A stretch of 64,000 bases of DNA from a virus (IMGVR_UViG_3300050821_003843:1-64000); one strand, 5' to 3'. Shown: positions 27,695 through 39,358, counted from the first letter of the stretch. Notes: a model not told the origin generated them from the letters alone. Translations and numbers: made by a program.

Positions 27695-29794
27695 ATCTTA
27701 GGAATCGACACAGAGACTTCTGGCGTTGACAAATACCACGGAGCAGCCCCATTCTTTGTAACTGTGTGTGACGATAATGACAATCAAACTTATTGGGAGG
27801 CTGATGTCGATCCATTCACCCGCAAACCTTTATGGGACTCTTCTGACCTACGCAGTATAAGAAAGACCATACTTGTACCGGGTGAGATGAAGATAATCCA
27901 CAATGAGAAGTTTGATGTACCGATGTTGGACAACATCTTACCCGGACTAATGGATGAATGGCCTTGGGATTATACACATGACACGCTAATTAGTGGGCAC
28001 TTGATTAACTCTAACGAACCACACGATCTAACGAGTCAGGTTCTAATCCACTTAGGTCTGAACATCAAGCCAGTGGAAGACAAGCTGCACGAGGCAACAG
28101 CAGCAGCCCGTAGAATGTGTCGAACAAAAGCGTTTATTGCCCAGTTCGGTCAGTGGCGCATTGCTGAAAAGGGTGAAGAGGATTTACCATCGGCAAAGGA
28201 TGCGACTTGGCAGTTTGACACGTTTCTGCCTCGCATGGTAGCCAAATACCAATGGGAAGCGAGTGATGCATATACTGCCTTAGAAAACAGACAACCATTA
28301 TCCATAATAGAAAAAAGTAATGGTTGGGAATGGCGTCCTCCTTCAGAAGTCTATGAGGGGTATCATCCGTGGTGGACAGTATTGTCAGAATACGCTAACC
28401 CAGATAGCGGGGTGTTATGTTACTTGGCAAAGGCGCATCACAAGTGCCTACACGCAAATGATCTGTGGTCTATTTATCTTGAACGAATGAAACTTGTACC
28501 ACAACTGTGTGCGATGGAGTCACGTGGCGCAACGTTGCATCAAGGCAGAATGACAGAACTGGAGGAACGGTTTACTAAAGCGTCAGAAGCGGCTGGCCGA
28601 TTGTGTAAGAACATTGCATCAAGGTATGACAACTACAAACTTGAGTTGCCTAAGAACGGGATGAACAACTCATTAAGGGGTTTTCTCTTTGATACAATGA
28701 GACTGGAATCACCGATCAAAACGGATTCAGGTGCCCCATCGTTCGATAAAAATGTGATCGAGCATTTTATGCTGACGCTCCCCACTAAGAGCAAGGAATT
28801 GACCTTCGTGGAAAAATTAAGGGAAAAGCGTAGCGCAGACACAGCCCTTGGATATTTGACCAGTTATCGAAAGTACATGCTGCCCGATGAAGTGATGGAC
28901 TTTTACCTGATACATTCCAAGGTGAATCCAACAGGTACAGCCACATTGCGCAACTCATCACAAGACCCCAATTCCCAACAGGTGAGTAAGAAAGAAGGAT
29001 TCAACCTACGTTACGTGTTTGGTCCGTTACCCGGTCGCGAATGGTGGTCGATTGATTACGACAACTTGGAGTTGCGCATCCCAGCCTATGAGTCTGGCGA
29101 GCGGGTAATGATTGATATCTTCGAAAAGCCCAACGATGCGCCCTACTTTGGCAGTTATCACTTATTAAATGCCAGTATCGTTTATCCTGACTTGTTCTGG
29201 CCATTAGCCGAAAAGAAAGGTGCATTCAAGGAAAAATACGGTTCGACCTACTACCAGTGGATCAAGAATTTCGATTTCGCCGATCAGTATGGTGCAATGT
29301 TGGGATCAGGTACAGCAGACCTAGCAGCACATAAACCCGGTGCGCAAGCAATGGTCCAGGCTAGATTGAAAGAAAAGAACAAACTCAATAACAAGTACAT
29401 TGACTTGGCTAACAAGTGGGGGTTTGTTGAGACCATACCCGATATCGAGGTCAATCCACGACGGGGTTATCCGGTCTATTGTTCGCGTTCAAAGTGGGGG
29501 CGAGTATCGCCAACGATTCCTCTAAACTACCATGTACAGTCTACAGCGTGTTGGATAAAAATGCGTGCTATGTTTAAGGTAGAAGAATACTTGCGGGCAA
29601 ACAAACTCGATGCCTACATCATCCTCGAAATCCACGATGAATTGATCTTCGATTTCCCATTTGTAAAGGATAAAGGAAATTTACATCACTTGAATGCAAT
29701 TCGAAAGATCATGGCATCTCTAGGCGATTGTGTTGGCATTCCGTTGACGTGTGGACTTTCCTACCATCCTCACAACTGGGCACAAGCGTCATGA
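27695..29794 (+). CDS. Family A DNA polymerase with 3'-5' exonuclease (start uncertain)
   Basis: ExoI GIDTET lies upstream of the ORF-track start; HNEKFD; TGTATLRNSSQDPN; DYDNLELR; KNFDFADQYG; EIHDEL. Confidence 0.92.
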   Translation: MLGIDTETSGVDKYHGAAPFFVTVCDDNDNQTYWEADVDPFTRKPLWDSSDLRSIRKTILVPGEMKIIHNEKFDVPMLDNILPGLMDEWPWDYTHDTLISGHLINSNEPHDLTSQVLIHLGLNIKPVEDKLHEATAAARRMCRTKAFIAQFGQWRIAEKGEEDLPSAKDATWQFDTFLPRMVAKYQWEASDAYTALENRQPLSIIEKSNGWEWRPPSEVYEGYHPWWTVLSEYANPDSGVLCYLAKAHHKCLHANDLWSIYLERMKLVPQLCAMESRGATLHQGRMTELEERFTKASEAAGRLCKNIASRYDNYKLELPKNGMNNSLRGFLFDTMRLESPIKTDSGAPSFDKNVIEHFMLTLPTKSKELTFVEKLREKRSADTALGYLTSYRKYMLPDEVMDFYLIHSKVNPTGTATLRNSSQDPNSQQVSKKEGFNLRYVFGPLPGREWWSIDYDNLELRIPAYESGERVMIDIFEKPNDAPYFGSYHLLNASIVYPDLFWPLAEKKGAFKEKYGSTYYQWIKNFDFADQYGAMLGSGTADLAAHKPGAQAMVQARLKEKNKLNNKYIDLANKWGFVETIPDIEVNPRRGYPVYCSRSKWGRVSPTIPLNYHVQSTACWIKMRAMFKVEEYLRANKLDAYIILEIHDELIFDFPFVKDKGNLHHLNAIRKIMASLGDCVGIPLTCGLSYHPHNWAQAS

Positions 29795-29987: not shown

Positions 29988-30320
29988 TTGAGAGTGTTCA
30001 AACAGCATGAACTGCGAGAAGCATACGCCTATGCTGAAGCCGGTGAGATAGCTGTCCATGTCCATTTTATGGTATTCGCTAACTCGCCAGCATGTTTCAA
30101 ACGTGATATGAATCGTGGCTATCCTATCGCTCACGTATTAGGACAGGATAAGGAACACCTGATTGCGATAGCCCATGACTGTGGTGTTAAGAAAGTGGTA
30201 GTAGAATGCCAAGGAACTAGACGACAGCATATTGACCTATGTGGTAAGCCGTTGATCCATTGTCTAACACAAATGGATGTGGATATAGAAGATTACACTT
30301 TGGAGAAACAAGGCAAATGA
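29988..30320 (+). CDS. DUF4031-like hypothetical protein
   Basis: AHVL..D...L...A..G....HIDL motif; GGAGG SD. Confidence 0.45.
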   Translation: MRVFKQHELREAYAYAEAGEIAVHVHFMVFANSPACFKRDMNRGYPIAHVLGQDKEHLIAIAHDCGVKKVVVECQGTRRQHIDLCGKPLIHCLTQMDVDIEDYTLEKQGK

Positions 30321-30621
30321 AGATTAGATTGGTATGCCCCGAAGGGTGGAAACAGTGTGGGTTCCAACGTCTTGTGTGTGATGCGGTTGAATGTAGTTTG
30401 AACGATAAGGTACGAATTGCCGACACACTCAAACAATGGATCAATGATGGAGTGATGGAAGCTGAATCGAACCCGAGTACTGGCTTTGCGTTTGTGGATG
30501 GAAATAACTTGTTTGTGGAGTCAGGTGAAGGGACGACGTTACATGACTTCGCTGACTCGTTACAAGATGCTTCGAAATGTGTGGTAGAATACAAGGATGC
30601 AGATGATGAAGGGTGGCAAGT

Positions 30622-31482
30622 ATGTTAGTTGAAGAAGTTAAGAAGTTGACACCGTTACAAAGACTCTGTTTTTGGATAACCGAAAGGGAATCAATCAGGT
30701 TGAAAAAAGAAGCTGGTGATCCTAAACCGTGGAGCACGAACGAAGTATTACAGAATTTCCGCTTCTGCAATGTGATTAGGAGTGATGACAAGGTTTCACA
30801 GTGGCTCATGAACAACTGGTACACAAAGGAAAACATTGAGAAGGGGAATTTGGTAACGGCTTGTGTACTGGCACGACAGATCAACAATATCGAAACGATG
30901 ACGGATATTGGCTACCCTCATCCATGGAACCCGAAACGAGTCGAAGCGATTTGTAAAAAACGTGTAGCCGATGGGAAAAAGGTATTCAACGGCGCTTACA
31001 TCATCACGGGTGGGTTAGGTGGTGGTACGAAGGTGGAACAGGTGATTCACCTTGTGGTTGATCCAATCCATAAAGCGAAGGTAGCTCCAGTCTATGAGTC
31101 ACTTGAGGCAACACATACTCGATTGATGAATTATGTCGGTATGGGGTCATTTATTGCGGGGCAAGTGGTGGCAGACATTAAATTAGCTCTAAACCATGAA
31201 AACTATTGGCTTGATAGAAACACATGGGCTCCTATGGGTCCAGGTTCAAAACGTGGAATGAATCGACTTCACGAGCGCAACCCAGACGAGAAAAAGAATC
31301 AAGCCAAGTTCACAAAAGAACTTCAAGAACTTAGATCACAACTAAGGAAGTTGCTACCAGCAGATCTTTACTTGCGCATGGAAGCGATGGACCTTCAAAA
31401 CTGCCTATGTGAATTTTCGAAGATGGAGCGCACGTTGTTCGATAGCAAACGACCCAAACAACTCTATCCGGGGGTGAAATGA
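30622..31482 (+). CDS. 5-hmdU DNA kinase helical-domain family (aGPT-Pplase1)
   Basis: WITERESIR..PWS..LQNFRFCNVIRSDDKVS, GAYII, FIAGQVVAD, GPGSKRG, QNCLCEFSK. Confidence 0.85.
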   Translation: MLVEEVKKLTPLQRLCFWITERESIRLKKEAGDPKPWSTNEVLQNFRFCNVIRSDDKVSQWLMNNWYTKENIEKGNLVTACVLARQINNIETMTDIGYPHPWNPKRVEAICKKRVADGKKVFNGAYIITGGLGGGTKVEQVIHLVVDPIHKAKVAPVYESLEATHTRLMNYVGMGSFIAGQVVADIKLALNHENYWLDRNTWAPMGPGSKRGMNRLHERNPDEKKNQAKFTKELQELRSQLRKLLPADLYLRMEAMDLQNCLCEFSKMERTLFDSKRPKQLYPGVK

Positions 31483-32060
31483 TTATTTCACTCCGGGGGA
31501 CAAATGGATCAGGCAAGTCCACTGTCGTGCGTAAACTCATGGAACGCTACAACGCACAACCTGAGAGCCTTGATTCAAAGGGCAGACCGATGAACTATGT
31601 AATGACGTTGGGTAATGGATCATCACTGTACGTTGTAGGCTGCTATCAGAATGCTTGCGGTGGTTGCGACGGTATTCACCCCTTTACTGAAATTTGGCCA
31701 CGTGTAACGCGATTGGCAGCGTTGGGACACGTGTTATTCGAGGGGCTGGCGTTTACCAGTGGTTACGGCAACATCGGCAAGGATAGTGAAGTGTATGGTG
31801 ATGATTTTGTTTTTGCGTTTATGGATACCCCACCAGAAGTCTGTATCCAACGGGTACTTGCTCGACGTGAAGCAAAGGGAACTGAAAAACCGTACAGCCC
31901 AAAAAACCTGATGAGTAAGCTAAGTGCGGCGCGTAGCAGCGAACGTAAGATAAAAGAAGTGTACGGTAGGCGAGTTGTTTCAATCAATCACCGTGCAGCA
32001 GTTCAGCAGATTTTAGGGATCTACTATAATGCAAAACGAATTGAATGCATTGGAGTTTAG
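31479..32060 (+). CDS. P-loop kinase of hypermodification loci
   Basis: LRGTNGSGKST, GCY...CGGCD, VLFEG. Confidence 0.8.
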   Translation: MIISLRGTNGSGKSTVVRKLMERYNAQPESLDSKGRPMNYVMTLGNGSSLYVVGCYQNACGGCDGIHPFTEIWPRVTRLAALGHVLFEGLAFTSGYGNIGKDSEVYGDDFVFAFMDTPPEVCIQRVLARREAKGTEKPYSPKNLMSKLSAARSSERKIKEVYGRRVVSINHRAAVQQILGIYYNAKRIECIGV

Positions 32061-32823
32061 TCGACAACTAATTACATTGAATGACTTAGATCCAACGTAT
32101 GTTGTCTTGTGGTATGCGCAACTAGAGCCTGAACTAAAAGCAAAATTTCTCCTAGCTTACTTGTGCTTTTATCATTTTGGAACGGCATCATGGATCTGTT
32201 CACAAAATAACTATTGGCAAGGGATGATGGATGCGGCAGCAACGAAAGAGCGACCTAGAGCAAGTGAGCGTCGTCATTTTCGAGGGGGGCAAGCAACTCG
32301 GGCAATTCAGGACTTAATTGATTTAAAACTGACTCCATTACGCATCGTTCAACACTGGTCGAATGGTAAAATTAAACCAAGCGCTTTGGAGGTAATACAG
32401 CAAGTTAAAAACCATCGTGGGTTTGGTGATTGGGTGAGTTTCAAAGCGGCTGACTTATTAGAACGATTGGCAATAGTCCAAGTTCAATTCACACCGGATG
32501 ATGTATTCAACATGTACGAATCGCCACGACTAGGCGCAGAATTGATTGCTGCACAACATGACGTTCCAATGGAACAGGCTTGTCAATTTGCCTACAACCA
32601 TTTGACAGCAGGATTAAAGGATCTACTTGCTCCGCCACGTTGCGAACGACGATTGAACATCCAAGAGATTGAAACCTGCTTGTGCAAGTACCACAGTTAC
32701 CACAAAGGTCATTATAAATTAGGACAAGATGTTATCGAGGTGCGCCATGCAATTGAGTTGTATGGTAGCTTGCCGATGAGTAAACGTCTATTTAATGCTG
32801 GTAAGAGTGGAGGGCTGTGGTGA
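32029..32823 (+). CDS. Amino acid:DNA transferase (aGPT-Pplase2/AADT family)
   Basis: DLDPTY, AYLCFYH.G.AS, R.SERRHFRG, GFGDWVSFKAADL, QEIETCLCKY. Confidence 0.82.
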   Translation: MQNELNALEFSRQLITLNDLDPTYVVLWYAQLEPELKAKFLLAYLCFYHFGTASWICSQNNYWQGMMDAAATKERPRASERRHFRGGQATRAIQDLIDLKLTPLRIVQHWSNGKIKPSALEVIQQVKNHRGFGDWVSFKAADLLERLAIVQVQFTPDDVFNMYESPRLGAELIAAQHDVPMEQACQFAYNHLTAGLKDLLAPPRCERRLNIQEIETCLCKYHSYHKGHYKLGQDVIEVRHAIELYGSLPMSKRLFNAGKSGGLW

Positions 32824-33662
32824 AAGACGTAATTGTCATTGGAGCGGGTATTATTGGCGCTACGATTGCTAAGTCACTACAGACGCAGGGAAGAGACGTA
32901 TTGGTGATTGATAGTAATGAGTCACTGGCGGGGACAAAACCCTCTGGGGGCCATTTAAAGCCATCATGGTTTGGAGGGATGTCGAAAACTGAGTATGAAC
33001 CTGCAATGGAACTACTCAATGAGACTTGGGGATTGATTGAAGAACAGTTTACTATCAAGGCGTTGGGAATCAGTACGGGCGTCACTTCAACGGTTTATCG
33101 AGTTGACACGGATAAGGTAATTGAGTTTCCAAGGGTTGTAGGAAGAGTGTGTTCATTACAGTTTTTGGATAACTACCCAAATGTTGTATGGAACAATGGT
33201 GAAAGTCAGGAACGTTGCCGCTTGTTGATTGTCGCGGCTGGAGTGTGGTGTGGAACGTTACTTCCACAACTTGCTTTGAAAATACAGCGTAAGCAGGGAA
33301 TATCGTTCCGATATAAAGGTCAGTTGAAAGAACCATTTATCAATCCGTGGGCACCATACAAGCAGATTGTTGCGCATCAACAATCGTCGAATGAGATTTG
33401 GATAGGCGATGGGTCTACGATACTACAACCAAACTGGACAGCTAAAAGAGAACTTGAGTGTCGAACACGATGTGAGAATAACTTACAGAAGATGCAGTAC
33501 ATTCGTTCTATTACTGGGTTGCGACCCTACTGTGAAAGTGGGAAAGACCCTTGTCTATTAAAACAAGTTTTCAACCGTGTATGGGTCGCGACAGGTGCGG
33601 GTAAGTCTGGGACCATTGCAGCGGGTTGGGTTGCTAGAAAGATCATTGATGCCACGAGCTAA
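32817..33662 (+). CDS. FAD-dependent oxidoreductase (glycine oxidase/DAO-like)
   Basis: VIGAGIIG dinucleotide fold; GLRPY; TGAGKSG. Confidence 0.88.
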   Translation: MVKDVIVIGAGIIGATIAKSLQTQGRDVLVIDSNESLAGTKPSGGHLKPSWFGGMSKTEYEPAMELLNETWGLIEEQFTIKALGISTGVTSTVYRVDTDKVIEFPRVVGRVCSLQFLDNYPNVVWNNGESQERCRLLIVAAGVWCGTLLPQLALKIQRKQGISFRYKGQLKEPFINPWAPYKQIVAHQQSSNEIWIGDGSTILQPNWTAKRELECRTRCENNLQKMQYIRSITGLRPYCESGKDPCLLKQVFNRVWVATGAGKSGTIAAGWVARKIIDATS

Positions 33663-34524
33663 AATCACTTCAGTCAATTGGACCTATGGGTGTGAGTTAG
33701 AACTAGGTGACGTGAGCAGAGACATAGTAATTCCTCTACAATATGGTAAATGGGAGTATGCTGAGACGGATATTGTCAACATACTTCCTCCATACCGGCA
33801 TGTTGCTTGTGACCCATTGGGGTTGGAACCACCAATGGGGGGTGAGATCAACACTGTTCCAACAATTGGTTGGAAATCACAAATCAAATTGATTGAAGAA
33901 TTGTTGAAATGGTTAATCACTGAGGGACAATCACCAACAACAAATTGTATATCACACACACACGTACATATCCACATACCGAGACTAGTACGTGACATTG
34001 AACTACTCAAAAAATTGACTAGGTATATAATGGAGAATCAAGTTAAATCTGTTGATAGTTGCCTTCAATTTGATTCTAGGCAAATGTCTGCAAAATTAGG
34101 GGCGGGATATTTGAAACTCGATTGTGGAAGACTGATGCCTGATTGGATGGGTGAGAATATTATCAACATGGCAAACTCGTTTGATGATTTTATCCGTATC
34201 CAGTGCTGTGGTAAAGATGGTGTCAGTCGTGGTAGACCGTTTCGATATGCGATCAATACATACTGCCTAAAGCACACACAGACAATTGAATTCCGACTAT
34301 TTCGTAGCTCACTTGACTTACTAGAGCTCTCTGACTGCTTTCGATTCGTGGAACAATTCATGTTGGCGGCATTGAATGATGGACCTTCAGTGGATGAGTT
34401 ATTGAGGGTAGGTTATAAGTTTCCTCCGTTTCGCTACTCGCTACCAGAAGTCGAAGGCTGGCTAAAAACGAAGTGGGATAAAAGTAGGGGGGAGAAGAAA
34501 CGTGAATTCATTCCAGTTACGTGA
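33649..34524 (+). CDS. Amidoligase (glutamine-synthetase-fold COOH-NH2 ligase)
   Basis: YGCELE, GGEINT, HTHVHI, RYAIN, TIEFR. Confidence 0.82.
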   Translation: MPRAKITSVNWTYGCELELGDVSRDIVIPLQYGKWEYAETDIVNILPPYRHVACDPLGLEPPMGGEINTVPTIGWKSQIKLIEELLKWLITEGQSPTTNCISHTHVHIHIPRLVRDIELLKKLTRYIMENQVKSVDSCLQFDSRQMSAKLGAGYLKLDCGRLMPDWMGENIINMANSFDDFIRIQCCGKDGVSRGRPFRYAINTYCLKHTQTIEFRLFRSSLDLLELSDCFRFVEQFMLAALNDGPSVDELLRVGYKFPPFRYSLPEVEGWLKTKWDKSRGEKKREFIPVT

Positions 34525-35032
34525 AACAACTCGCGGAGAGTTTGTGACTGCTACGGGGTTGCATCCAGTTGCGGCTGACTCATTTGCTAAAACATTTCGC
34601 GCTAAAGCCGATGCATTTGACCTATGGCCGTGCCTAGGCGTATGGAATGACAGGCAGCAACTGATGGGGGCGATTATTTGGACGATTACACAACGGCAAC
34701 CGCATATCGCAAATTTACAACTACTTCACACGTTCGCCGAGTATCGTCGACAGGGAGTGGCGTCAAAACTGTGTGTGGAGTGTTTAAATCGCGTGAGAGG
34801 GCTTGGGGCTGAGTATTTGAGGGTGAGTAGTGAGCCTGAAAGCGTGGCGTTTTACAAGAGCCTAGGCATTCAATTTTTAGGTAGGCAAAAATCAGGTTGC
34901 TTACTGGCGATGGGTCGATTAACGGGTACTGATGGCGATTTCAGACAACTTAATTACTCATTAGAACACGAGCCGATAAGAAAAGCAGTGTTCCGAAAGG
35001 GTAAAGGAGGTTGTGTTGAAGTGTTTAAATAA
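34502..35032 (+). CDS. GNAT acetyltransferase
   Basis: LHTFAEYRRQGVASKL acetyl-CoA motif; SVAFYKSLG. Confidence 0.85.
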   Translation: MNSFQLRETTRGEFVTATGLHPVAADSFAKTFRAKADAFDLWPCLGVWNDRQQLMGAIIWTITQRQPHIANLQLLHTFAEYRRQGVASKLCVECLNRVRGLGAEYLRVSSEPESVAFYKSLGIQFLGRQKSGCLLAMGRLTGTDGDFRQLNYSLEHEPIRKAVFRKGKGGCVEVFK

Positions 35033-35035
35033 AAA

Positions 35036-35060
35036 TAGCCCACCGGGTTAGGGCGGGCTA
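35036..35060. terminator. Intrinsic terminator between convergent units
   Basis: TAGCCC..GGGCTA hairpin with an A-run on the left. Confidence 0.55.
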
Positions 35061-35088
35061 ATGAAGTCAACTTATCAGACCAATAATG

Positions 35089-35505
35089 TTATTGCTTGAC
35101 CCACACATTTCCCCGCTTACCTTCGGTTGATCCGTAAGCAACTCGACCGTCTTCCACCATCAATTTCAAATGATTGACGACAGGACCACCCTCTTTTCCA
35201 CCGGGTGTACGACCTAGTCCGACAACGATTTCACGTGAGGAGTAATCGTGACCCTTCTTCATGAACTTGAGGATTTGATTTTGGAGTTCGGTTGTGTCGG
35301 TTCGTGTTGCTCGTGGGGCTGATTCCTTTTTCACTAATTTCGCAGCAGCCTTTTTCGTAGCCACTTTTTTCACGGGGGCAGTTGACTTGGCGGCAACCTT
35401 TTTCACTGCCTCCTTTTTAACAGGGGCAGGTGATGCAGCAGCATTCACGGGAGCACCGGTGACCACGCCATCAATCACAGCGTTTCCAACAACTTTCTTA
35501 GCCAT
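35089..35505 (-). CDS. Histone H1-like Lys/Ala-rich protein with C-terminal winged helix
   Basis: PVKK..AVKKVAAK repeats; ILKFM..SSREIV..HLKLMVEDGRV. Confidence 0.7.
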   Translation of the reverse strand: MAKKVVGNAVIDGVVTGAPVNAAASPAPVKKEAVKKVAAKSTAPVKKVATKKAAAKLVKKESAPRATRTDTTELQNQILKFMKKGHDYSSREIVVGLGRTPGGKEGGPVVNHLKLMVEDGRVAYGSTEGKRGNVWVKQ

Positions 35506-35537
35506 AATTCGTCATCTTTCAAACTAGAACTTGAGGG

Positions 35538-35596
35538 TATCTGCCATCATCAGACCACGTAGATAAATTCGTGGTGACGCCCGGAGGCGTTTCGGC
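35538..35596 (-). ncRNA. Type II hammerhead ribozyme
   Basis: Minus strand GCC-GAAA-CGCC(UCCG)GGCG-UC-ACCACG(loop)CGUGGU-CUGAUGA-U-GGC; loop UAUCU can pair with 3' AGAUA. Confidence 0.88.
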
Positions 35597-35785
35597 TTAG
35601 ACACATACAGGGTAAGCAAGGGCAGAAGATTTGTGATGACCATTGATTAACGATTGGAGTTGTTCAACCGTCGCATCATCAACTTTTTCGTTCGAGATCA
35701 GGCGAGTTACCTGAACGATGTTTTCGCTGGCGTCAATTCGGACTTGGTAGACTCGACCATTCAATTGGATTTTGTAAGTTTTCAT
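35597..35785 (-). CDS. Small hypothetical early protein
   Basis: GAAGGA SD; downstream of promoter. Confidence 0.55.
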   Translation of the reverse strand: MKTYKIQLNGRVYQVRIDASENIVQVTRLISNEKVDDATVEQLQSLINGHHKSSALAYPVCV

Positions 35786-35840
35786 GATTTGTTCCTTCGT
35801 TTCGTGTGTGTCATTTCGTTTCGTTGAACCCGACAACAGA

Positions 35841-35869
35841 AGTATCGTCGAGGAGTGGAAGTTTGTAAA
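35841..35869 (-). promoter_or_regulatory. Sigma70-like promoter
   Basis: Minus strand TTTACA-17-GATACT; leader GTTGTCGGGT shared with the 14.08-kb cassette. Confidence 0.6.
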
Positions 35870-35939
35870 GGAAATTCTGTGAACTTTTCTACGGAATTTT
35901 CAAAATAGTTCTGAAATCCCTATTTTAGAGGAGTTTTCT

Positions 35940-36557
35940 ATGAGAGAAATTGTTCGGATTCTCGTTGACATGGACGGTCTGTTGACGAATTTTGATGACG
36001 CGGCGTGCCTCGCACATGGCTTTCCGATCCAAATGTTACACGATTACAGGCAGCCGGGTGAATGGTCGCTCATCCCTATTTTCGCTCGAATGCGGGGCGA
36101 AATCATGAGTGTGGAGGAATTTTGGAGGGTGATTGGCGAACATGGTGAACTATTTTGGACCTCGTTGGCGCAAACCGAATGGATGGACCCATTGCTCCAA
36201 TTGGTTAAAGAATTCAACGGTAGTGATTGGCATGTGGTAACAGCCCCAAGCCATTGCCCCACGTCGTATAGTGGAAAGGTGAAGTGGTTGAAGTCACGAC
36301 TTGGCAAGGAATTTGATCGGGTACTGGCAACCCCGCACAAGGAAATTTTAGCCATGCCGGGTGTTATACTGATTGATGACAACGAACAAAACATACAACG
36401 GTTTAAACTGGCCGGTGGTAGTGGGATCTTGTTCCCAATAATGGGGAACTGTCTACATCACTTGGCAAATAATCCAGTGGCTTACGTGCGTGAACAGATA
36501 GAAGAAAGGCTGTATAAGGATGAATCTGAAAGTAGGGCAGATAGTCACGTGGCTTGA
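35940..36557 (+). CDS. HAD-family 5'(3')-deoxyribonucleotidase
   Basis: LVDMDGLL, TAP, GKVKWL, LIDD. Confidence 0.85.
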   Translation: MREIVRILVDMDGLLTNFDDAACLAHGFPIQMLHDYRQPGEWSLIPIFARMRGEIMSVEEFWRVIGEHGELFWTSLAQTEWMDPLLQLVKEFNGSDWHVVTAPSHCPTSYSGKVKWLKSRLGKEFDRVLATPHKEILAMPGVILIDDNEQNIQRFKLAGGSGILFPIMGNCLHHLANNPVAYVREQIEERLYKDESESRADSHVA

Positions 36558-36725: not shown

Positions 36726-37862
36726 ATGCATCTAAAGTATCCAAACGTAAATGACGCATTCCACGAATTGGTCTACGGAATTCATAATGGACACATTCCA
36801 ACCGTGTCATCACCTAGTAGAGTTGGTGACGTGTTACAAATCCAAGAACCTGTGATTGTCACATATGAAAAGCCGCTAGAGAGGGTGCTGTTCAACCCTG
36901 CACGCGATGTTAATCCATTCCTGAACTTGTATGAAACACTTTGGATGTTGGCTGGCCGTAATGACATTGCACCATTGGAATATTACTCTAAGAACTATGG
37001 TCAGTTCGTGGATGATGGTGATGGAATGCAGAATGCAGCATATGGATATAGGTGGAGACATGCATTACATAAAGAAATGGGAGATCCATGTAGTAAGTGT
37101 GGTGAGAGCGTTCCTTGTCACTGCGACGCACCATATTGTGTAGATCAACTCAAAGTTATTATCGACCATTTACGAAAGATACCAACGTCAAGACGTGTCG
37201 TGCTCCAAATGTGGAACGTAGAAGATGACTTACTCAAGATTGAAACAACAAAAGATGTTGCGTGCAATCTATGTGCGTTGTTCTCGTTGAGACAAGCTAG
37301 TCGAAAAGAAATAGAAGAAGAGGCACATAACGGCTACTATCTCGATATGACGGTCTACAATCGCTCGAATGACTTGACTCTTGGACTTTTGGGGGCGAAC
37401 GTTGTTCACTTCTCATTTCTACAAGAATACATGGCGAATTGCTTAGGCGTTCAGGTGGGGGTGTATAATCAAGTGAGTAACAATCTCCATTGTTACACAT
37501 CACGTTGGGAACCAGATAAGTGGTTAGCAGAAGGTGTGTGTGATGAGTACAGAAACCAACAGTGGAATCATGTACCGTTAGTTAAGGACCAACAGACGTT
37601 TGATAGTGAGTGTCGTAATTTTGTGGCTATGAACTTTTGCGGTGGTGTAATCCACGATAACCGTTGGGAAGAACCATTTTTGCGAACCGTGGCGCAACCG
37701 ATGATGAATGCCTTCCATTATCACAAACATCGCAAATACTGGGAAGCGTTGAATCACGGTGTTGCGAACATTGCTGACGGCGCTTGGCAATTGTGCGCAT
37801 ACAGATGGATTGAGAAACGACGACTGGCTTGGGAAGCGAAAAAGGAGACGAATGATGAGTAG
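36726..37862 (+). CDS. Thymidylate synthase homologue, probable dUMP hydroxymethylase
   Basis: AYGYRWR, SRRVVLQMW, DVACN, NRSND..GANVVHF (Asn at the dUMP-specificity position), NNLHCY; genomic context. Confidence 0.85.
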   Translation: MHLKYPNVNDAFHELVYGIHNGHIPTVSSPSRVGDVLQIQEPVIVTYEKPLERVLFNPARDVNPFLNLYETLWMLAGRNDIAPLEYYSKNYGQFVDDGDGMQNAAYGYRWRHALHKEMGDPCSKCGESVPCHCDAPYCVDQLKVIIDHLRKIPTSRRVVLQMWNVEDDLLKIETTKDVACNLCALFSLRQASRKEIEEEAHNGYYLDMTVYNRSNDLTLGLLGANVVHFSFLQEYMANCLGVQVGVYNQVSNNLHCYTSRWEPDKWLAEGVCDEYRNQQWNHVPLVKDQQTFDSECRNFVAMNFCGGVIHDNRWEEPFLRTVAQPMMNAFHYHKHRKYWEALNHGVANIADGAWQLCAYRWIEKRRLAWEAKKETNDE

Positions 37863-38097: not shown

Positions 38098-38636
38098 GAC
38101 AGATTTTGTACGGAGGTATTCCTAGCGGAGAATTTGGCAATAGGTCTCCCACATGGAACGGCTGGCTTGATTGGAATAAAGATCATCTAGGTTCTGATAA
38201 GTTTGAATTGTTTCACATTCGAAATCGTGTTGCAGGTGCAATGACTTGGTATGACGTGCCCAAATTCAAAATGGCTGATACGTGGGATATCGCTTGTCAA
38301 CACTTTAGCGTGGAACAGTTGTACATATCTGCTATGTGCCCTACTGAGTTGACACAAATCCAAGGTGAGGTAATGAGAACAGCCAAAGGACTGTATCTCT
38401 ATTACTCAACCGTAAAGAAGCCGATGCGTCAATCATTGTTGGAAGGGGGTCAAGAAGCACTAGGACTATTTGCAGTTTCTTTACTACAATACTACATGGA
38501 TCAAAACAGTTGGGAATGGTTGAATCACTTACTCGATAGTTATGAAGATCATGTCGTAGAGTTTACAACGCTCTCCAAACGGTGGGGCGCAGTCGAAGGA
38601 TATAACACACTATTTTGGGAGGTTAGAAAGTTCTAA
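38072..38636 (+). CDS. Hypothetical protein, probably made via +1 frameshift at 38120-38125
   Basis: GGAG+GTG start, frame stops at TCC-TAG; +1 frame continues SGEFGNRSPTW..WEVRKF; the TTG at 38106 lacks an SD. Confidence 0.6.
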
Positions 38637-39358
38637 TGGATATTAAACAGTACGAAGAAGCCAGCATGCGCACGATGGCAGACCAGAATGTGATTCGTCT
38701 ACGTAATTTTGAAGGCGTAGATAAAAAAGGTAATCCACAATTTGGCGGAAAAAATAGTAGTACAGTTCTGACACAACTCGACAACGCTGCTAGAGGCATG
38801 GCTGGTGATGTGGGTGAGGTCAATACGTGTGTACAACAAGCATTGGAGTATGGTAAACTACTAGACTTGGTGAATTTGAAGGAAGAACTAGGTGATGTGT
38901 TATGGCGAATCGTACAAGCATGTAACGCCGTGGGGTTCACGTTGGAGGAAGTGATGCAAGCGAACATTTCAAAGCTGGCTATAAGATACCCCGACAAGTA
39001 CACGGACCACTTAGCAGATGAGGCAAATCGAAATCGTGAAGCAGAACGACAAGCAATCACGGTTCCACAACTAGGCGAACCTTATCCAGTTGGTCATACG
39101 AATGACGGTGGAGTGATTGTAGAACCAATGTCACCAACCAGAACAGTAATGTCTCAAACTGGACAAGGTTGGGCAGAACCAAAAGAACAACGTGATACGG
39201 GACCGGGTCGATTGGATCAAGAACTAGAATACCCAGTTTCCAATGCATTTGTGTCTGCTGCTGATGCCCCTGTTCGTAGATGTCGAAAGTGCGGGTTGAA
39301 GATCCATCGTAATCAACCAAGTGATATCTGTTCAAGTTGCTTCAAACCTACAACGTGA
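38636..39358 (+). CDS. MazG-like nucleotide pyrophosphohydrolase
   Basis: GMAGDVGEV, KEELGDVLW, ANISKLAIRYP; C-terminal CxxC..CxxC. Confidence 0.85.
   Translation: MDIKQYEEASMRTMADQNVIRLRNFEGVDKKGNPQFGGKNSSTVLTQLDNAARGMAGDVGEVNTCVQQALEYGKLLDLVNLKEELGDVLWRIVQACNAVGFTLEEVMQANISKLAIRYPDKYTDHLADEANRNREAERQAITVPQLGEPYPVGHTNDGGVIVEPMSPTRTVMSQTGQGWAEPKEQRDTGPGRLDQELEYPVSNAFVSAADAPVRRCRKCGLKIHRNQPSDICSSCFKPTT

What the first reader, a model, noticed from the sequence alone, without database searches (positions are those of the whole stretch)
30622..35032. Thymidine-hypermodification operon with an extra amidoligase: candidate new DNA base
Seen: six overlapping genes encoding a 5-hmdU DNA kinase-family protein, a P-loop kinase, an amino acid:DNA transferase, an FAD oxidoreductase, an amidoligase and a GNAT. 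Nearby are a dUMP-type TS homologue, a HAD nucleotidase and MazG. Established: Pseudomonas phage PaMx11 uses kinase, glycine transferase, flavin-dependent lyase and acetyltransferase to make 5-acetylaminomethyl-dU. Inference: the amidoligase sitting between flavoenzyme and GNAT could ligate an acid (e.g. Glu) onto 5-aminomethyl-dU before or alongside acetylation, giving an uncharacterised base.
Basis: partly seen in the sequence, partly recalled or inferred. Interest (0 to 1): 0.88.

Follow-up and report, generated by a model that had tools for sequence, protein, structure and literature searches.

The report
Phage thymine-modification operon with amidoligase-GNAT cassette
An uncultured phage has the known enzymes that turn thymine in its DNA into 5-aminomethyl-uracil, but it finishes with a mobile pair of genes, an ATP-dependent amide ligase and an acetyltransferase, that probably builds a DNA base nobody has yet identified.

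Summary
Six overlapping + strand genes at 30613-35032 encode a helical 5-hmdU-kinase subunit, a P-loop kinase, an amino acid:DNA transferase (AADT), an FAD oxidase, an amidoligase and a GNAT. A thymidylate-synthase homologue, a HAD nucleotidase and MazG lie nearby. The amidoligase misses Pfam's cut-off, but its family and fold confirm it.

The interpretation needs one correction: the amidoligase is not an extra on a PaMx11 gene set. Five genes match PaMx11 gp46, gp47, gp49, gp50 and gp51 (31-38% identity), and the glycine-binding and catalytic residues are kept. The GNAT is unrelated to the gp48 acetyltransferase.

Amidoligase and GNAT form a two-gene cassette. They are adjacent in 79 of 80 related viral loci and fused in two proteins. 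Elsewhere the cassette sits in TET/JBP-GATase-AADT-kinase clusters that lack the FAD enzyme. GATase-AADT fusions suggest that those clusters make 5-aminomethyl-dU from ammonia. The window makes it from glycine plus the FAD oxidase. So 5-aminomethyl-dU is the likely shared substrate. The likely product is an acetyl-capped aminoacyl amide, which remains unproven.

The link between amidoligases and these clusters was published in 2021, and the product is unknown. This scan flagged similar clusters in at least 27 other genomes.

The parts
27764..29794 (+). Family-A DNA polymerase. It is upstream context and lies in the same + strand gene block.
   Evidence: Pfam DNA_pol_A 6.8e-29. 40-42% identical to the polymerase in the syntenic loci L085 and L090.
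30613..31482 (+). Helical subunit of the 5-hmdU DNA kinase (HMUDK_hel), homologue of PaMx11 gp50. An alternative ATG start lies at 30622.
   Evidence: PF18723 1.8e-41. PHROG 2396 6.7e-52. 31% identical to gp50, 1.2e-27. Start codons read.
31479..32060 (+). P-loop kinase, homologue of PaMx11 gp49 (5-hmdU DNA kinase).
   Evidence: 34% identical to gp49, 1e-26. P-loop Pfam hits fall below cut-offs; HMUDK_HMUD1 scores 1.1e-3. gp49 is listed as a 5-hmdU DNA kinase in Table 1 of PMC8989533.
32029..32823 (+). Amino acid:DNA transferase of the glycine type.
   Evidence: PF18724 1.8e-12. 32% identical to gp46, 1e-39. It keeps 11 of 12 gp46 active-site residues, including C247, E243, T244 and the glycine binders D24, W146 and K150.
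32817..33662 (+). FAD-dependent N-alpha-glycinylthymidine oxidase (NGTO/gp47 type). It would make 5-aminomethyl-dU.
   Evidence: PF01266 2.5e-22. 35% identical to gp47, 1e-57. It keeps 8 of 9 gp47 residues, including R242, W51, Y180, Q182, Y244 and K268.
33649..34524 (+). Glutamine-synthetase-like amidoligase, clade I. The ORF is open from GTG 33577; ATG 33649 fits the homologues.
   Evidence: Invariant residues in the family alignment are G14, E16, E66, H107, R199, E214 and R216.
34502..35032 (+). GNAT acyltransferase, the fixed partner of the clade I amidoligase.
   Evidence: Acetyltransf_10 6.8e-8, 33 bits against a cut-off of 23.6. Homologues at 40-55% identity lie directly downstream of the amidoligase in 79 of 80 loci. 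43% and 39% identical to the GNAT domains of the fusion proteins P0010 and P0028.
35036..35060 (.). GC-rich hairpin (9 pairs) just after the GNAT stop codon. It is a likely two-way terminator that closes the gene block.
   Evidence: Terminator-like site. This is a pattern match only; the region held 4 such sites against 6.1 expected in shuffles.
35940..36557 (+). HAD/NT5C-type 5' nucleotidase. The assignment is weak.
   Evidence: PF06941 9.7e-4, 19.5 bits against a cut-off of 24.8. A homologue sits at the same place in L085 and L086 (30% identity).
36726..37862 (+). Thymidylate-synthase homologue, presumed dUMP hydroxymethylase and the source of 5-hmdU.
   Evidence: PF00303 1.3e-21. 38% identical to PaMx11 gp51, 4e-69. 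Hydroxymethylase versus methylase chemistry was not tested.
38636..39358 (+). MazG-type nucleotide pyrophosphohydrolase.
   Evidence: PF03819 1.8e-9.

Best explanation
The six genes are a post-replicative thymidine-hypermodification operon of a complete 72.9-kb phage genome. The proposed pathway has five steps.

1. The thymidylate-synthase homologue supplies 5-hydroxymethyl-dUMP, so 5-hmdU enters the DNA.
2. The two-part kinase (helical subunit plus P-loop subunit) phosphorylates 5-hmdU in DNA.
3. The glycine-type AADT replaces the phosphate with glycine, giving N-alpha-glycinylthymidine.
4. The FAD oxidase cuts off glyoxylate and leaves 5-aminomethyl-dU.
5. The amidoligase-GNAT cassette then tailors that primary amine. 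The glutamine-synthetase-like ligase activates a free carboxylic acid with ATP, most likely an amino acid, and joins it to the aminomethyl group as an amide. The GNAT caps the newly introduced amine with an acyl (acetyl) group.

The final base would be a 5-(N-acyl-aminoacyl-aminomethyl)-dU, not the 5-acetylaminomethyl-dU of PaMx11.

Basis of each step: steps 1-4 are inferred from homology and residue conservation with enzymes that others have characterised. That the cassette is one functional unit is shown by synteny and fusions. The substrate, the order and the product of step 5 are inference.
For: The genome is complete, with direct terminal repeats.

Core pathway. Five window proteins match PaMx11 gp50, gp49, gp46, gp47 and gp51 at 31-38% identity. 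The AADT keeps 11 of 12 gp46 active-site residues, including the glycine binders W146 and K150. The M6-like YuA gp10 also keeps these; the ViI-like and TET-type AADTs do not. The FAD enzyme keeps 8 of 9 gp47 residues, including R242, which is proposed to hold the glycine carboxylate.

Cassette. A GNAT homologue lies directly downstream of the amidoligase in 79 of 80 IMG/VR loci. The same two domains are fused in P0010 (with HMUDK) and in P0028 (with HMUD2). L085 is a syntenic relative with polymerase, kinase, FAD, AADT, HAD, TS and MazG genes but without the pair.

Common intermediate. The cassette's usual home has a GATase upstream in 75 of 75 eligible loci and an AADT in 63 of 63. DAO over the cut-off is found in 0 of 23 long records. 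The window genome has the FAD enzyme and no GATase or TET/JBP. Two GATase-AADT fusion proteins exist whose AADT part is 35-39% identical to the TET-type AADTs. No GATase-amidoligase fusion was found. In L098 the gene order is amidoligase-GNAT-GATase-AADT. So the GATase goes with the AADT, and both routes plausibly end at 5-aminomethyl-dU.

FAD-amidoligase adjacency. 6 of 8 JGI loci with relatives of the FAD enzyme have an amidoligase directly after the FAD gene.

GNAT. The GNAT profile's best PDB matches are N-alpha-acetyltransferases: Naa30 at 2.2e-5, then Naa50 and RimI. This is weak evidence.
Against: There is no biochemical evidence for any protein of this window.

The amidoligase scores below Pfam's cut-off, and its PDB fold matches are weak.

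In the TET-type cassettes the GATase gene is immediately upstream of the amidoligase and overlaps it (75 of 75; L007 coordinates). That would also fit an asparagine-synthetase-like amidation of a DNA-borne carboxylate.

The GATase-AADT fusion evidence rests on two cluster representatives. That search warns that finding no other fusion is weak evidence.

The TET-type AADTs are nearest to the ViI-like serine transferases (26-29% identity). They could therefore install an amino acid rather than ammonia.

The nature of the acid and the acyl-CoA specificity of the GNAT are unknown. The window's GNAT could simply acetylate 5-aminomethyl-dU as gp48 does.
Confidence: 0.5

Rival explanations
1. Carboxylate-activation model. 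The amidoligase phosphorylates a carboxylate that is already on the DNA, here the glycine carboxylate of N-alpha-glycinylthymidine, and joins ammonia or a small amine to it. The product is a glycinamide-type base, and the GNAT acetylates the remaining amine. The FAD oxidase would then be a competing or salvage branch.
For: In the usual home of the cassette a class-II GATase gene lies immediately upstream of the amidoligase in 75 of 75 eligible loci. That is the layout of a split asparagine-synthetase-like amidating enzyme. The TET-type AADTs are nearest to the ViI-like serine transferases, which leave a free carboxylate and a free amine on the DNA. Glutamine-synthetase-superfamily ligases such as PafA can activate a carboxylate on a macromolecule (PafA/Dop are among the fold matches; the mechanism is recalled).
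Against: The window genome has no GATase. Its FAD enzyme keeps R242, proposed to bind the glycine carboxylate, so the two enzymes would compete for one substrate. The only GATase fusions found are with the AADT, not with the amidoligase. In L098 the GATase sits next to the AADT. 6 of 8 FAD-type JGI loci place an amidoligase after the FAD gene without any GATase hit.
Confidence: 0.2
2. Parallel or branch model. The GNAT acetylates 5-aminomethyl-dU directly, as PaMx11 gp48 does. The amidoligase acylates another fraction of the same sites with a different acid. The phage DNA would then carry two amide-type bases and not one composite base.
For: Both enzymes acylate amines, and 5-aminomethyl-dU offers one amine. 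PaMx11 gp48 shows that a GNAT can acetylate this base (PMC8989533). In L087 the clade I amidoligase is followed by a second amidoligase and not by a GNAT, so the partner can be exchanged.
Against: The pairing is near-obligate (79 of 80 loci), and there are covalent fusions in both domain orders. These point to sequential action on one substrate, not to two competing enzymes. The window GNAT is unrelated to gp48 at E<1e-2.
Confidence: 0.15
3. Reverse order with a dicarboxylic acyl-CoA. The GNAT first puts a succinyl- or malonyl-type group on 5-aminomethyl-dU. The amidoligase then amidates the free carboxylate.
For: It gives both enzymes a role with one DNA amine and uses the DNA-borne carboxylate logic. 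The GNAT's acyl-CoA specificity was not determined in any call.
Against: There is no direct evidence. The gene order is amidoligase then GNAT in 79 of 80 loci. The GNAT's nearest solved relatives are acetyl-CoA-using N-alpha-acetyltransferases (weak).
Confidence: 0.07
4. Non-DNA substrate. The amidoligase-GNAT pair makes or modifies a small metabolite or a protein, for example the donor molecule that the AADT uses, and does not touch DNA.
For: Amidoligase_2 proteins are widespread in phages in other contexts (named BFVD hits; Atlas clusters). No DNA-binding feature was tested here.
Against: Family members are fused to 5-hmdU DNA kinase domains (HMUDK_HMUD1, HMUD2) and to TET-associated glycosyltransferase. 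The family co-occurs with an AADT in 63 of 63 eligible loci. The window AADT keeps the glycine-binding residues of gp46, so it needs no special donor.
Confidence: 0.05

Closest known systems
Pseudomonas phage PaMx11 5-acetylaminomethyl-dU pathway: gp46 glycine:DNA transferase, gp47 FAD oxidase, gp48 acetyltransferase, gp49 kinase, gp50, gp51 (Lee et al. 2021, PMC8989533; Wen et al. 2024, PMC11472151)
   Same: Homologues of gp46, gp47, gp49, gp50 and gp51 are present at 31-38% identity. The active-site residues of gp46 (11 of 12) and gp47 (8 of 9) are kept. The route starts from a thymidylate-synthase homologue in both.
   Different: There is no gp48 orthologue. The window's GNAT is a different lineage (no BLASTP hit at E<1e-2) and comes with a glutamine-synthetase-like amidoligase that PaMx11 lacks. 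The gene order differs: kinase genes come first here and last in PaMx11.
ParB-dependent TET/JBP T-dioxygenase hypermodification clusters of uncultured phages (O'Toole et al., PNAS 2026, PMC13229309, and bioRxiv 10.1101/2025.08.14.668559; metavirome contigs noted by Lee et al. 2021)
   Same: They carry the same amidoligase-GNAT pair, at 50-57% and 40-55% identity. They also carry an AADT and a P-loop kinase.
   Different: Those clusters start from TET/JBP oxidation of thymine in DNA. They have a class-II GATase and an AADT subfamily that lacks the glycine binders (Y146 with Y or F at position 150). They have no FAD oxidase. The window has none of TET/JBP, GATase or that AADT subfamily. The passages I read name the GATase, kinase and AADT, and list GNAT among domain annotations, but they do not name the amidoligase or the product.
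FAD-type clusters with a clade II amidoligase and an LMW phosphatase (phage Simon PQ683277, JGI loci L088, L090, L093, L094)
   Same: They have an AADT, an FAD oxidase, an amidoligase directly after the FAD gene, and the kinase pair and TS homologue where the contig extends that far.
   Different: Their amidoligase is only 26-31% identical and falls in the other main clade (99% SH-aLRT). Its partner is an LMWPc phosphatase, adjacent in Simon and fused in L094, not a GNAT.
Glutamine synthetase / carboxylate-amine ligase superfamily (GS, GmaS, YbdK, PafA/Dop) and Pfam Amidoligase_2 (PF12224)
   Same: The predicted fold matches only this superfamily in the PDB and phage 'Amidoligase enzyme' models in BFVD. 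Acidic, His and Arg columns are invariant in the family alignment. 40 of 79 family members hit PF12224.
   Different: The window protein itself is below the Pfam cut-off. TM-scores to solved structures are only 0.28-0.41. At 291 aa it is smaller than GS and lacks its N-terminal domain; that size comparison is from recall. No member of this phage clade has a known substrate.

Membership tests
PaMx11-type thymidine hypermodification pathway (5-AcNmdU) | 5-hmdU DNA kinase (gp49 P-loop, with gp50-like helical partner) | tested here: met
   ORF2 is 34% identical to gp49 (1e-26). ORF1 is 31% identical to gp50 (1.2e-27). PF18723 scores 1.8e-41.
PaMx11-type thymidine hypermodification pathway (5-AcNmdU) | Glycine:DNA transferase with catalytic Cys247, metal ligands E243 and T244, and glycine binders D24, W146 and K150 | tested here: met
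   11 of 12 residues are kept; only K261 changes, to Q. PF18724 scores 1.8e-12.
PaMx11-type thymidine hypermodification pathway (5-AcNmdU) | FAD-dependent N-alpha-GlyT oxidase with W51, Y180, Q182, R242, Y244 and K268 | tested here: met
   8 of 9 residues are kept; only K202 changes, to L. 35% identical to gp47, 1e-57.
PaMx11-type thymidine hypermodification pathway (5-AcNmdU) | gp48-type 5-NmdU N-acetyltransferase | tested here: not met
   No BLASTP hit between the window GNAT and gp48 at E<1e-2. The GNAT belongs to the amidoligase-linked lineage.
PaMx11-type thymidine hypermodification pathway (5-AcNmdU) | Final base is 5-acetylaminomethyl-dU | not testable with these tools
   This needs nucleoside LC-MS of virion DNA or of reconstituted reactions.
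Amidoligase_2 / glutamine-synthetase-like carboxylate-amine ligases | Match to PF12224 above the gathering score | tested here: not met
   14.7 bits against a cut-off of 22, E=0.029. However, 40 of 79 aligned homologues hit it at E<=1e-3, and 3 of the 10 fused relatives scanned exceed the cut-off.
Amidoligase_2 / glutamine-synthetase-like carboxylate-amine ligases | GS-like fold | tested here: met
   AF2 model with pLDDT 97.5. BFVD: 30 matches at E<=1e-3, the named ones mostly 'Amidoligase enzyme', top TM 0.76-0.78. PDB top matches are all in the GS superfamily but weak. Atlas structure row 1 has TM 0.84 to a viral amidoligase cluster.
Amidoligase_2 / glutamine-synthetase-like carboxylate-amine ligases | Conserved acidic, His and Arg catalytic columns (E-x-E, E, H-x-H, R, E-x-R) | tested here: met
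   G14, E16, E66, H107, R199, E214 and R216 are invariant. E18 and H105 are conserved in at least 90% of 79 sequences. Their mapping to GS metal and ATP ligands is recalled, not tested.
Amidoligase_2 / glutamine-synthetase-like carboxylate-amine ligases | ATP-dependent amide bond formation | not testable with these tools
   This needs an enzyme assay.
GNAT acyl-CoA N-acyltransferases | Pfam GNAT domain above the cut-off, and a CoA-binding R/Q-x-x-G-x-G/A motif | tested here: met
   Acetyltransf_10 scores 33 bits against 23.6, and Acetyltransf_1 scores 30 against 20.7. The sequence reads RRQGVA at residues 81-86; the motif definition is recalled.
ParB-dependent TET/JBP thymine hypermodification cassette | TET/JBP dioxygenase and class-II GATase in the same genome | tested here: not met
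   There are no PF12851 or PF13522 matches at E<=0.1 in the complete 72.9-kb genome.
ParB-dependent TET/JBP thymine hypermodification cassette | Amidoligase-GNAT pair of the same lineage | tested here: met
   50-57% and 40-55% identity to the pairs in 79 of 80 loci. In the tree the window, together with L087_a, lies outside the 61-row TET-type clade but inside clade I.

The most novel reading that the evidence does not exclude
The amidoligase-GNAT cassette carries out the first ATP-dependent amide (peptide-like) bond formation on a base within DNA. It builds an N-acetyl-aminoacyl side chain on 5-aminomethyl-dU. Phages reach that shared amine by two unrelated routes: glycine transfer followed by FAD cleavage (as in this window), or direct ammonia transfer by a GATase-coupled AADT. 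The window is the natural experiment that identifies the cassette's substrate.
Probability: 0.35. Interest if true: 0.8.

Novelty: new variant of a known kind. Interest (0 to 1): 0.6.

Why it matters
Thymidine hypermodifications protect phage DNA from restriction enzymes and other nucleases, and they supply enzymes for DNA chemistry.

The steps up to 5-aminomethyl-dU are solved, but the amidoligases that ride with these clusters have had no assigned substrate since they were noted in 2021.

This window pairs a well-understood, residue-conserved route to 5-aminomethyl-dU with the same amidoligase-GNAT module that sits in hundreds of TET/JBP-type viral loci. That gives a concrete, testable substrate for the module: PaMx11-type enzymes can make the DNA substrate in vitro.

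It also implies that the GATase in the other clusters feeds the transferase and not the ligase.

If confirmed, it would add an ATP-dependent amide ligase to the enzymes known to work on DNA bases, and at least one new DNA base.

Tried and rejected
Megablast of 30000-36000 against GenBank phages found nothing.

tblastn of the GNAT against phages found nothing. tblastn of the amidoligase found one record, phage Simon. So no cultured phage in that collection carries the clade I pair.

The single-sequence AF2 model was useless (pLDDT 35.5) and was replaced by the alignment-based model.

The profile of the amidoligase family against PDB sequences gave 0 hits at E<=10.

NCBIfam gave nothing informative for ORF1, ORF3 or ORF5.

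Complex prediction for amidoligase plus GNAT gave no verdict (score 0.00, mark 0.32). It counts neither for nor against binding.

A search with the single FAD protein in IMG/VR found no relative. With alignment A3 it found only 3 loci, none with an amidoligase.

The genome-contig scan found only two MAG contigs, so no cultured host source emerged.

I considered that the window's GNAT is simply gp48. I rejected this together.

I considered that the GATase feeds the amidoligase. I kept that as a rival, but weaken it.

The supplements of PMC8989533, PMC13229309 and PMC11472151 were not opened. Their contig tables may already list this arrangement.

No search for promoters or expression data was pursued beyond.

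Full report
OBSERVATION.

The window belongs to a complete 72,917-bp IMG/VR virus record with direct terminal repeats. Six + strand ORFs at 30613-35032 overlap each other by 4-32 nt.

Pfam gives:
- HMUDK_hel for ORF1 (1.8e-41)
- only sub-threshold P-loop hits for ORF2 (AAA_33 1.5e-5; HMUDK_HMUD1 1.1e-3)
- ADDT for ORF3 (1.8e-12)
- DAO for ORF4 (2.5e-22)
- nothing for ORF5
- GNAT for ORF6 (Acetyltransf_10 6.8e-8)

PHROGs agree and likewise have nothing for ORF5. From its likely ATG start at 33649, ORF5 scores only E=0.029 (14.7 bits, cut-off 22) for Amidoligase_2.

There is a family-A polymerase, a thymidylate-synthase homologue (1.3e-21) and MazG (1.8e-9). There is also a weak NT5C-type HAD, below cut-off. 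A GC-rich hairpin at 35036-35060 follows the GNAT stop codon (pattern match only).

IS ORF5 AN AMIDOLIGASE?

An exhaustive HMMER search of 1.84 billion representatives found 270 relatives at E<=1e-3 and 53 at E<=1e-30.

In an alignment of 79 of them, G14, E16, E66, H107, R199, E214 and R216 are invariant. E18 and H105 are nearly so. Of these 79 members, 40 hit PF12224 at E<=1e-3, best 3.7e-13.

AlphaFold2 with that alignment gave pLDDT 97.5; the single-sequence model had failed. Foldseek against BFVD gave 30 matches at E<=1e-3. The named ones are mostly 'Amidoligase enzyme' and the top TM-scores are 0.76-0.78. Against the PDB the matches are weak (best E 4.7e-3, TM 0.28-0.41). All of the top ones are glutamine synthetase, gamma-glutamylmethylamide synthetase, YbdK or PafA/Dop. 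A sequence profile against the PDB found nothing. The ESM Atlas places the protein in viral amidoligase clusters.

I accept the family assignment at the level of fold and superfamily. The protein itself fails Pfam's cut-off.

THE CORE IS PaMx11-LIKE, DOWN TO RESIDUES.

Against the PaMx11 proteins (locus), the window's proteins match as follows:
- ORF1 matches gp50 (31% identity)
- ORF2 matches gp49 (34%)
- ORF3 matches gp46 (32%)
- ORF4 matches gp47 (35%)
- the TS homologue matches gp51 (38%)

Lee et al. 2021 list gp46, gp47, gp48 and gp49 as glycine:DNA transferase, flavin-dependent lyase, acetyltransferase and 5-hmdU DNA kinase (PMC8989533; passages and Table 1 read).

Wen et al. 2024 (PMC11472151; sections 14, 20 and 22 read) name the active-site residues. 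Mapped by alignment, the window AADT keeps 11 of 12. These include the nucleophile C247, the metal ligands E243 and T244, and the glycine binders D24, W146 and K150. As a calibration, the M6-like YuA gp10 also has W and K at these two positions. A ViI-like transferase (Marshall_13) has L and N. The window FAD enzyme keeps 8 of 9 residues. These include R242, which is proposed to hold the glycine carboxylate.

Steps up to 5-aminomethyl-dU are therefore well supported by homology, though not by experiment on these proteins.

THE GNAT IS NOT gp48; AMIDOLIGASE AND GNAT ARE ONE CASSETTE.

The window GNAT has no BLASTP hit to gp48 at E<1e-2.

In 79 of those 80, a homologue of the window GNAT (40-55% identity) lies directly downstream of the amidoligase (50-57% identity). 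The one exception ends 92 nt after the amidoligase.

None of the 80 has a tblastn hit at 1e-5 to the window's kinase subunits, AADT, FAD enzyme or TS homologue.

The two domains are also fused. P0010 (942 aa) is amidoligase-GNAT-HMUDK, and P0028 (698 aa) is GNAT-amidoligase-HMUD2. Their GNAT parts are 43% and 39% identical to the window's.

A syntenic IMG/VR relative, L085, has polymerase, kinase subunits, FAD enzyme, AADT, HAD, TS homologue, the 176-aa ORF and MazG. It has no amidoligase or GNAT.

WHERE THE CASSETTE USUALLY LIVES.

In the 80 loci, counting only those with enough flank:
- a class-II GATase lies just upstream in 75 of 75
- a TET/JBP dioxygenase is present in 59 of 60
- an AADT is present in 63 of 63
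- a P-loop kinase is present in 56 of 56

Pfam confirms these families in L007 and L022. PF18724 is over the cut-off in 21 of 23 long records. The two misses are contigs that end soon after the amidoligase. DAO over the cut-off is found in 0 of 23.

These are the ParB-dependent T-dioxygenase clusters described by O'Toole et al. (PMC13229309 and the bioRxiv version). The passages I read name the GATase, kinase and AADT, and list GNAT among domain annotations. They do not name the amidoligase or the product.

The window genome has no GATase, TET/JBP or LMWPc match at E<=0.1.

WHAT THE TWO CONTEXTS SHARE.

The AADTs of the TET-type loci keep the catalytic residues but have Y at position 146 and Y or F at position 150, so they lack the glycine binders.

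A search for longer relatives of the GATase found two proteins. Both are GATase_6 plus ADDT fusions (P0273, P0274). Their AADT part is 35-39% identical to the TET-type AADTs. No GATase-amidoligase fusion was found, though that search warns that absence is weak evidence.

In the MAG contig L098 the order is TS homologue ... amidoligase-GNAT-GATase-AADT-HMUDK_hel, so the GATase lies next to the AADT.

I infer that in those clusters glutamine-derived ammonia is the AADT's nucleophile and gives 5-aminomethyl-dU directly. The window reaches the same amine by glycine transfer and FAD cleavage. The lead that the GATase goes with the transferase came from earlier notes of this scan. The fusion and residue tests are mine.

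The shared substrate of the cassette is then 5-aminomethyl-dU. With one DNA amine, the simplest linear order has two steps. First, the amidoligase adds an acid that itself carries an amine, that is, an amino acid. Then the GNAT caps that amine. The GNAT profile's best solved relatives are N-alpha-acetyltransferases (Naa30 at 2.2e-5, Naa50, RimI), which fits this order but is weak evidence.

OTHER AMIDOLIGASE CONTEXTS.

Relatives of the FAD enzyme are common: 187 proteins at E<=1e-10. Of 8 JGI loci with such a relative, 6 have an amidoligase right after the FAD gene. L090 and L091 are near-duplicates. L089 ends 134 nt after the gene, and L092 shows none in its 690 nt. Five of these six amidoligases are only 26-31% identical to the window's.

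In a quick IQ-TREE of 105 rows (LG+G4, SH-aLRT only, long branches flagged), these distant amidoligases fall in a separate clade II (99). Phage Simon and forms fused to TAGT, LMWPc or a P-loop kinase fall there too.

The window pairs with L087_a (97) inside clade I (99) and outside the 61-row TET-type clade (98).

Clade II travels with an LMW phosphatase, which is adjacent in Simon and fused in L094. L087 has a clade I amidoligase followed by a clade II one and no GNAT.

Among the FAD-type loci I examined, only the window has the GNAT.

NOVELTY.

The link between amidoligases and thymidine-hypermodification clusters is in print, with function unknown (PMC8989533). My searches found no paper that assigns a substrate. 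The terms used were: amidoligase, PF12224, 5-NmdU, AADT, glycinylthymidine and glutamylthymidine. Supplements were closed, so published contig tables may already include this arrangement.

This scan has flagged related clusters before. 33 notes in at least 27 genomes mention an amidoligase with an AADT. 14 notes in at least 12 genomes mention the TET cassette.

New here are the combination of a PaMx11-type core with the clade I amidoligase-GNAT cassette, and the argument from two routes to one intermediate. I rate it a new variant of a known kind.

LIMITS.

- There is no biochemistry on these proteins.
- The acid, the acyl-CoA and the order of steps are inferred.
- The GATase-AADT fusion evidence is two cluster representatives.
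- The tight GATase-amidoligase adjacency in TET-type loci still fits a carboxylate-amidation model, which I keep as the main rival.

Noticed in passing
P0273, P0274 (protein database; no locus): Two fusion proteins of about 555-560 aa join a class-II GATase domain to an AADT domain of the TET-type subfamily. This suggests that ammonia is a nucleophile for this transferase subfamily.
   Followed up: partly
L094:7524-8927; L082 (phage Simon) 6968-8381; P0114: Clade II amidoligases in FAD-type clusters are fused to, or directly followed by, a low-molecular-weight phosphatase (LMWPc). In P0114 a TET-associated glycosyltransferase is fused as well. The role of the phosphatase is unknown.
   Followed up: partly
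L087:3783-5703: Two amidoligase genes lie in tandem after the FAD gene: clade I (54% identity) and then clade II (27%). There is no GNAT. This may be a two-step acylation.
   Followed up: partly
L098:2265-10072: This is a third context for the cassette, on a MAG contig: TS homologue ... amidoligase-GNAT-GATase-AADT-HMUDK_hel, with no TET/JBP hit.
   Followed up: partly
L085:3266-12007: A 58-kb IMG/VR phage is syntenic with the window from the polymerase to MazG. It lacks the amidoligase-GNAT pair and has the FAD gene before the AADT gene. It probably stops at 5-aminomethyl-dU.
   Followed up: partly
window 26147-26923: A 258-aa ORF has a borderline family-2 glycosyltransferase match (23.6 bits against a cut-off of 23.3). 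It lies upstream of the polymerase, and a link to DNA modification was not examined.
   Followed up: no
window 20154-20747: A uracil-DNA glycosylase superfamily protein (PF03167 1.5e-23) is encoded in a phage that should replace thymine with 5-hmdU derivatives. Its specificity may be of interest.
   Followed up: no
window 35089-35505 (- strand): A 138-aa minus-strand ORF with no Pfam hit sits between the GNAT and the HAD gene. It converges on the hairpin at 35036-35060.
   Followed up: no
L022:9417-10712 and 32 of 56 related loci: A roughly 431-aa protein with no Pfam match is inserted between the GNAT and the AADT in about half of the TET-type cassettes.
   Followed up: no
ESM Atlas cluster (structure row 2): A 675-aa viral architecture combines GNAT-phage-like (PF22559), Amidoligase_2 and DAM-like-phage2 domains and is auto-named a putative antirestriction protein. 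It is another GNAT-amidoligase pairing in a DNA-modification setting.
   Followed up: no
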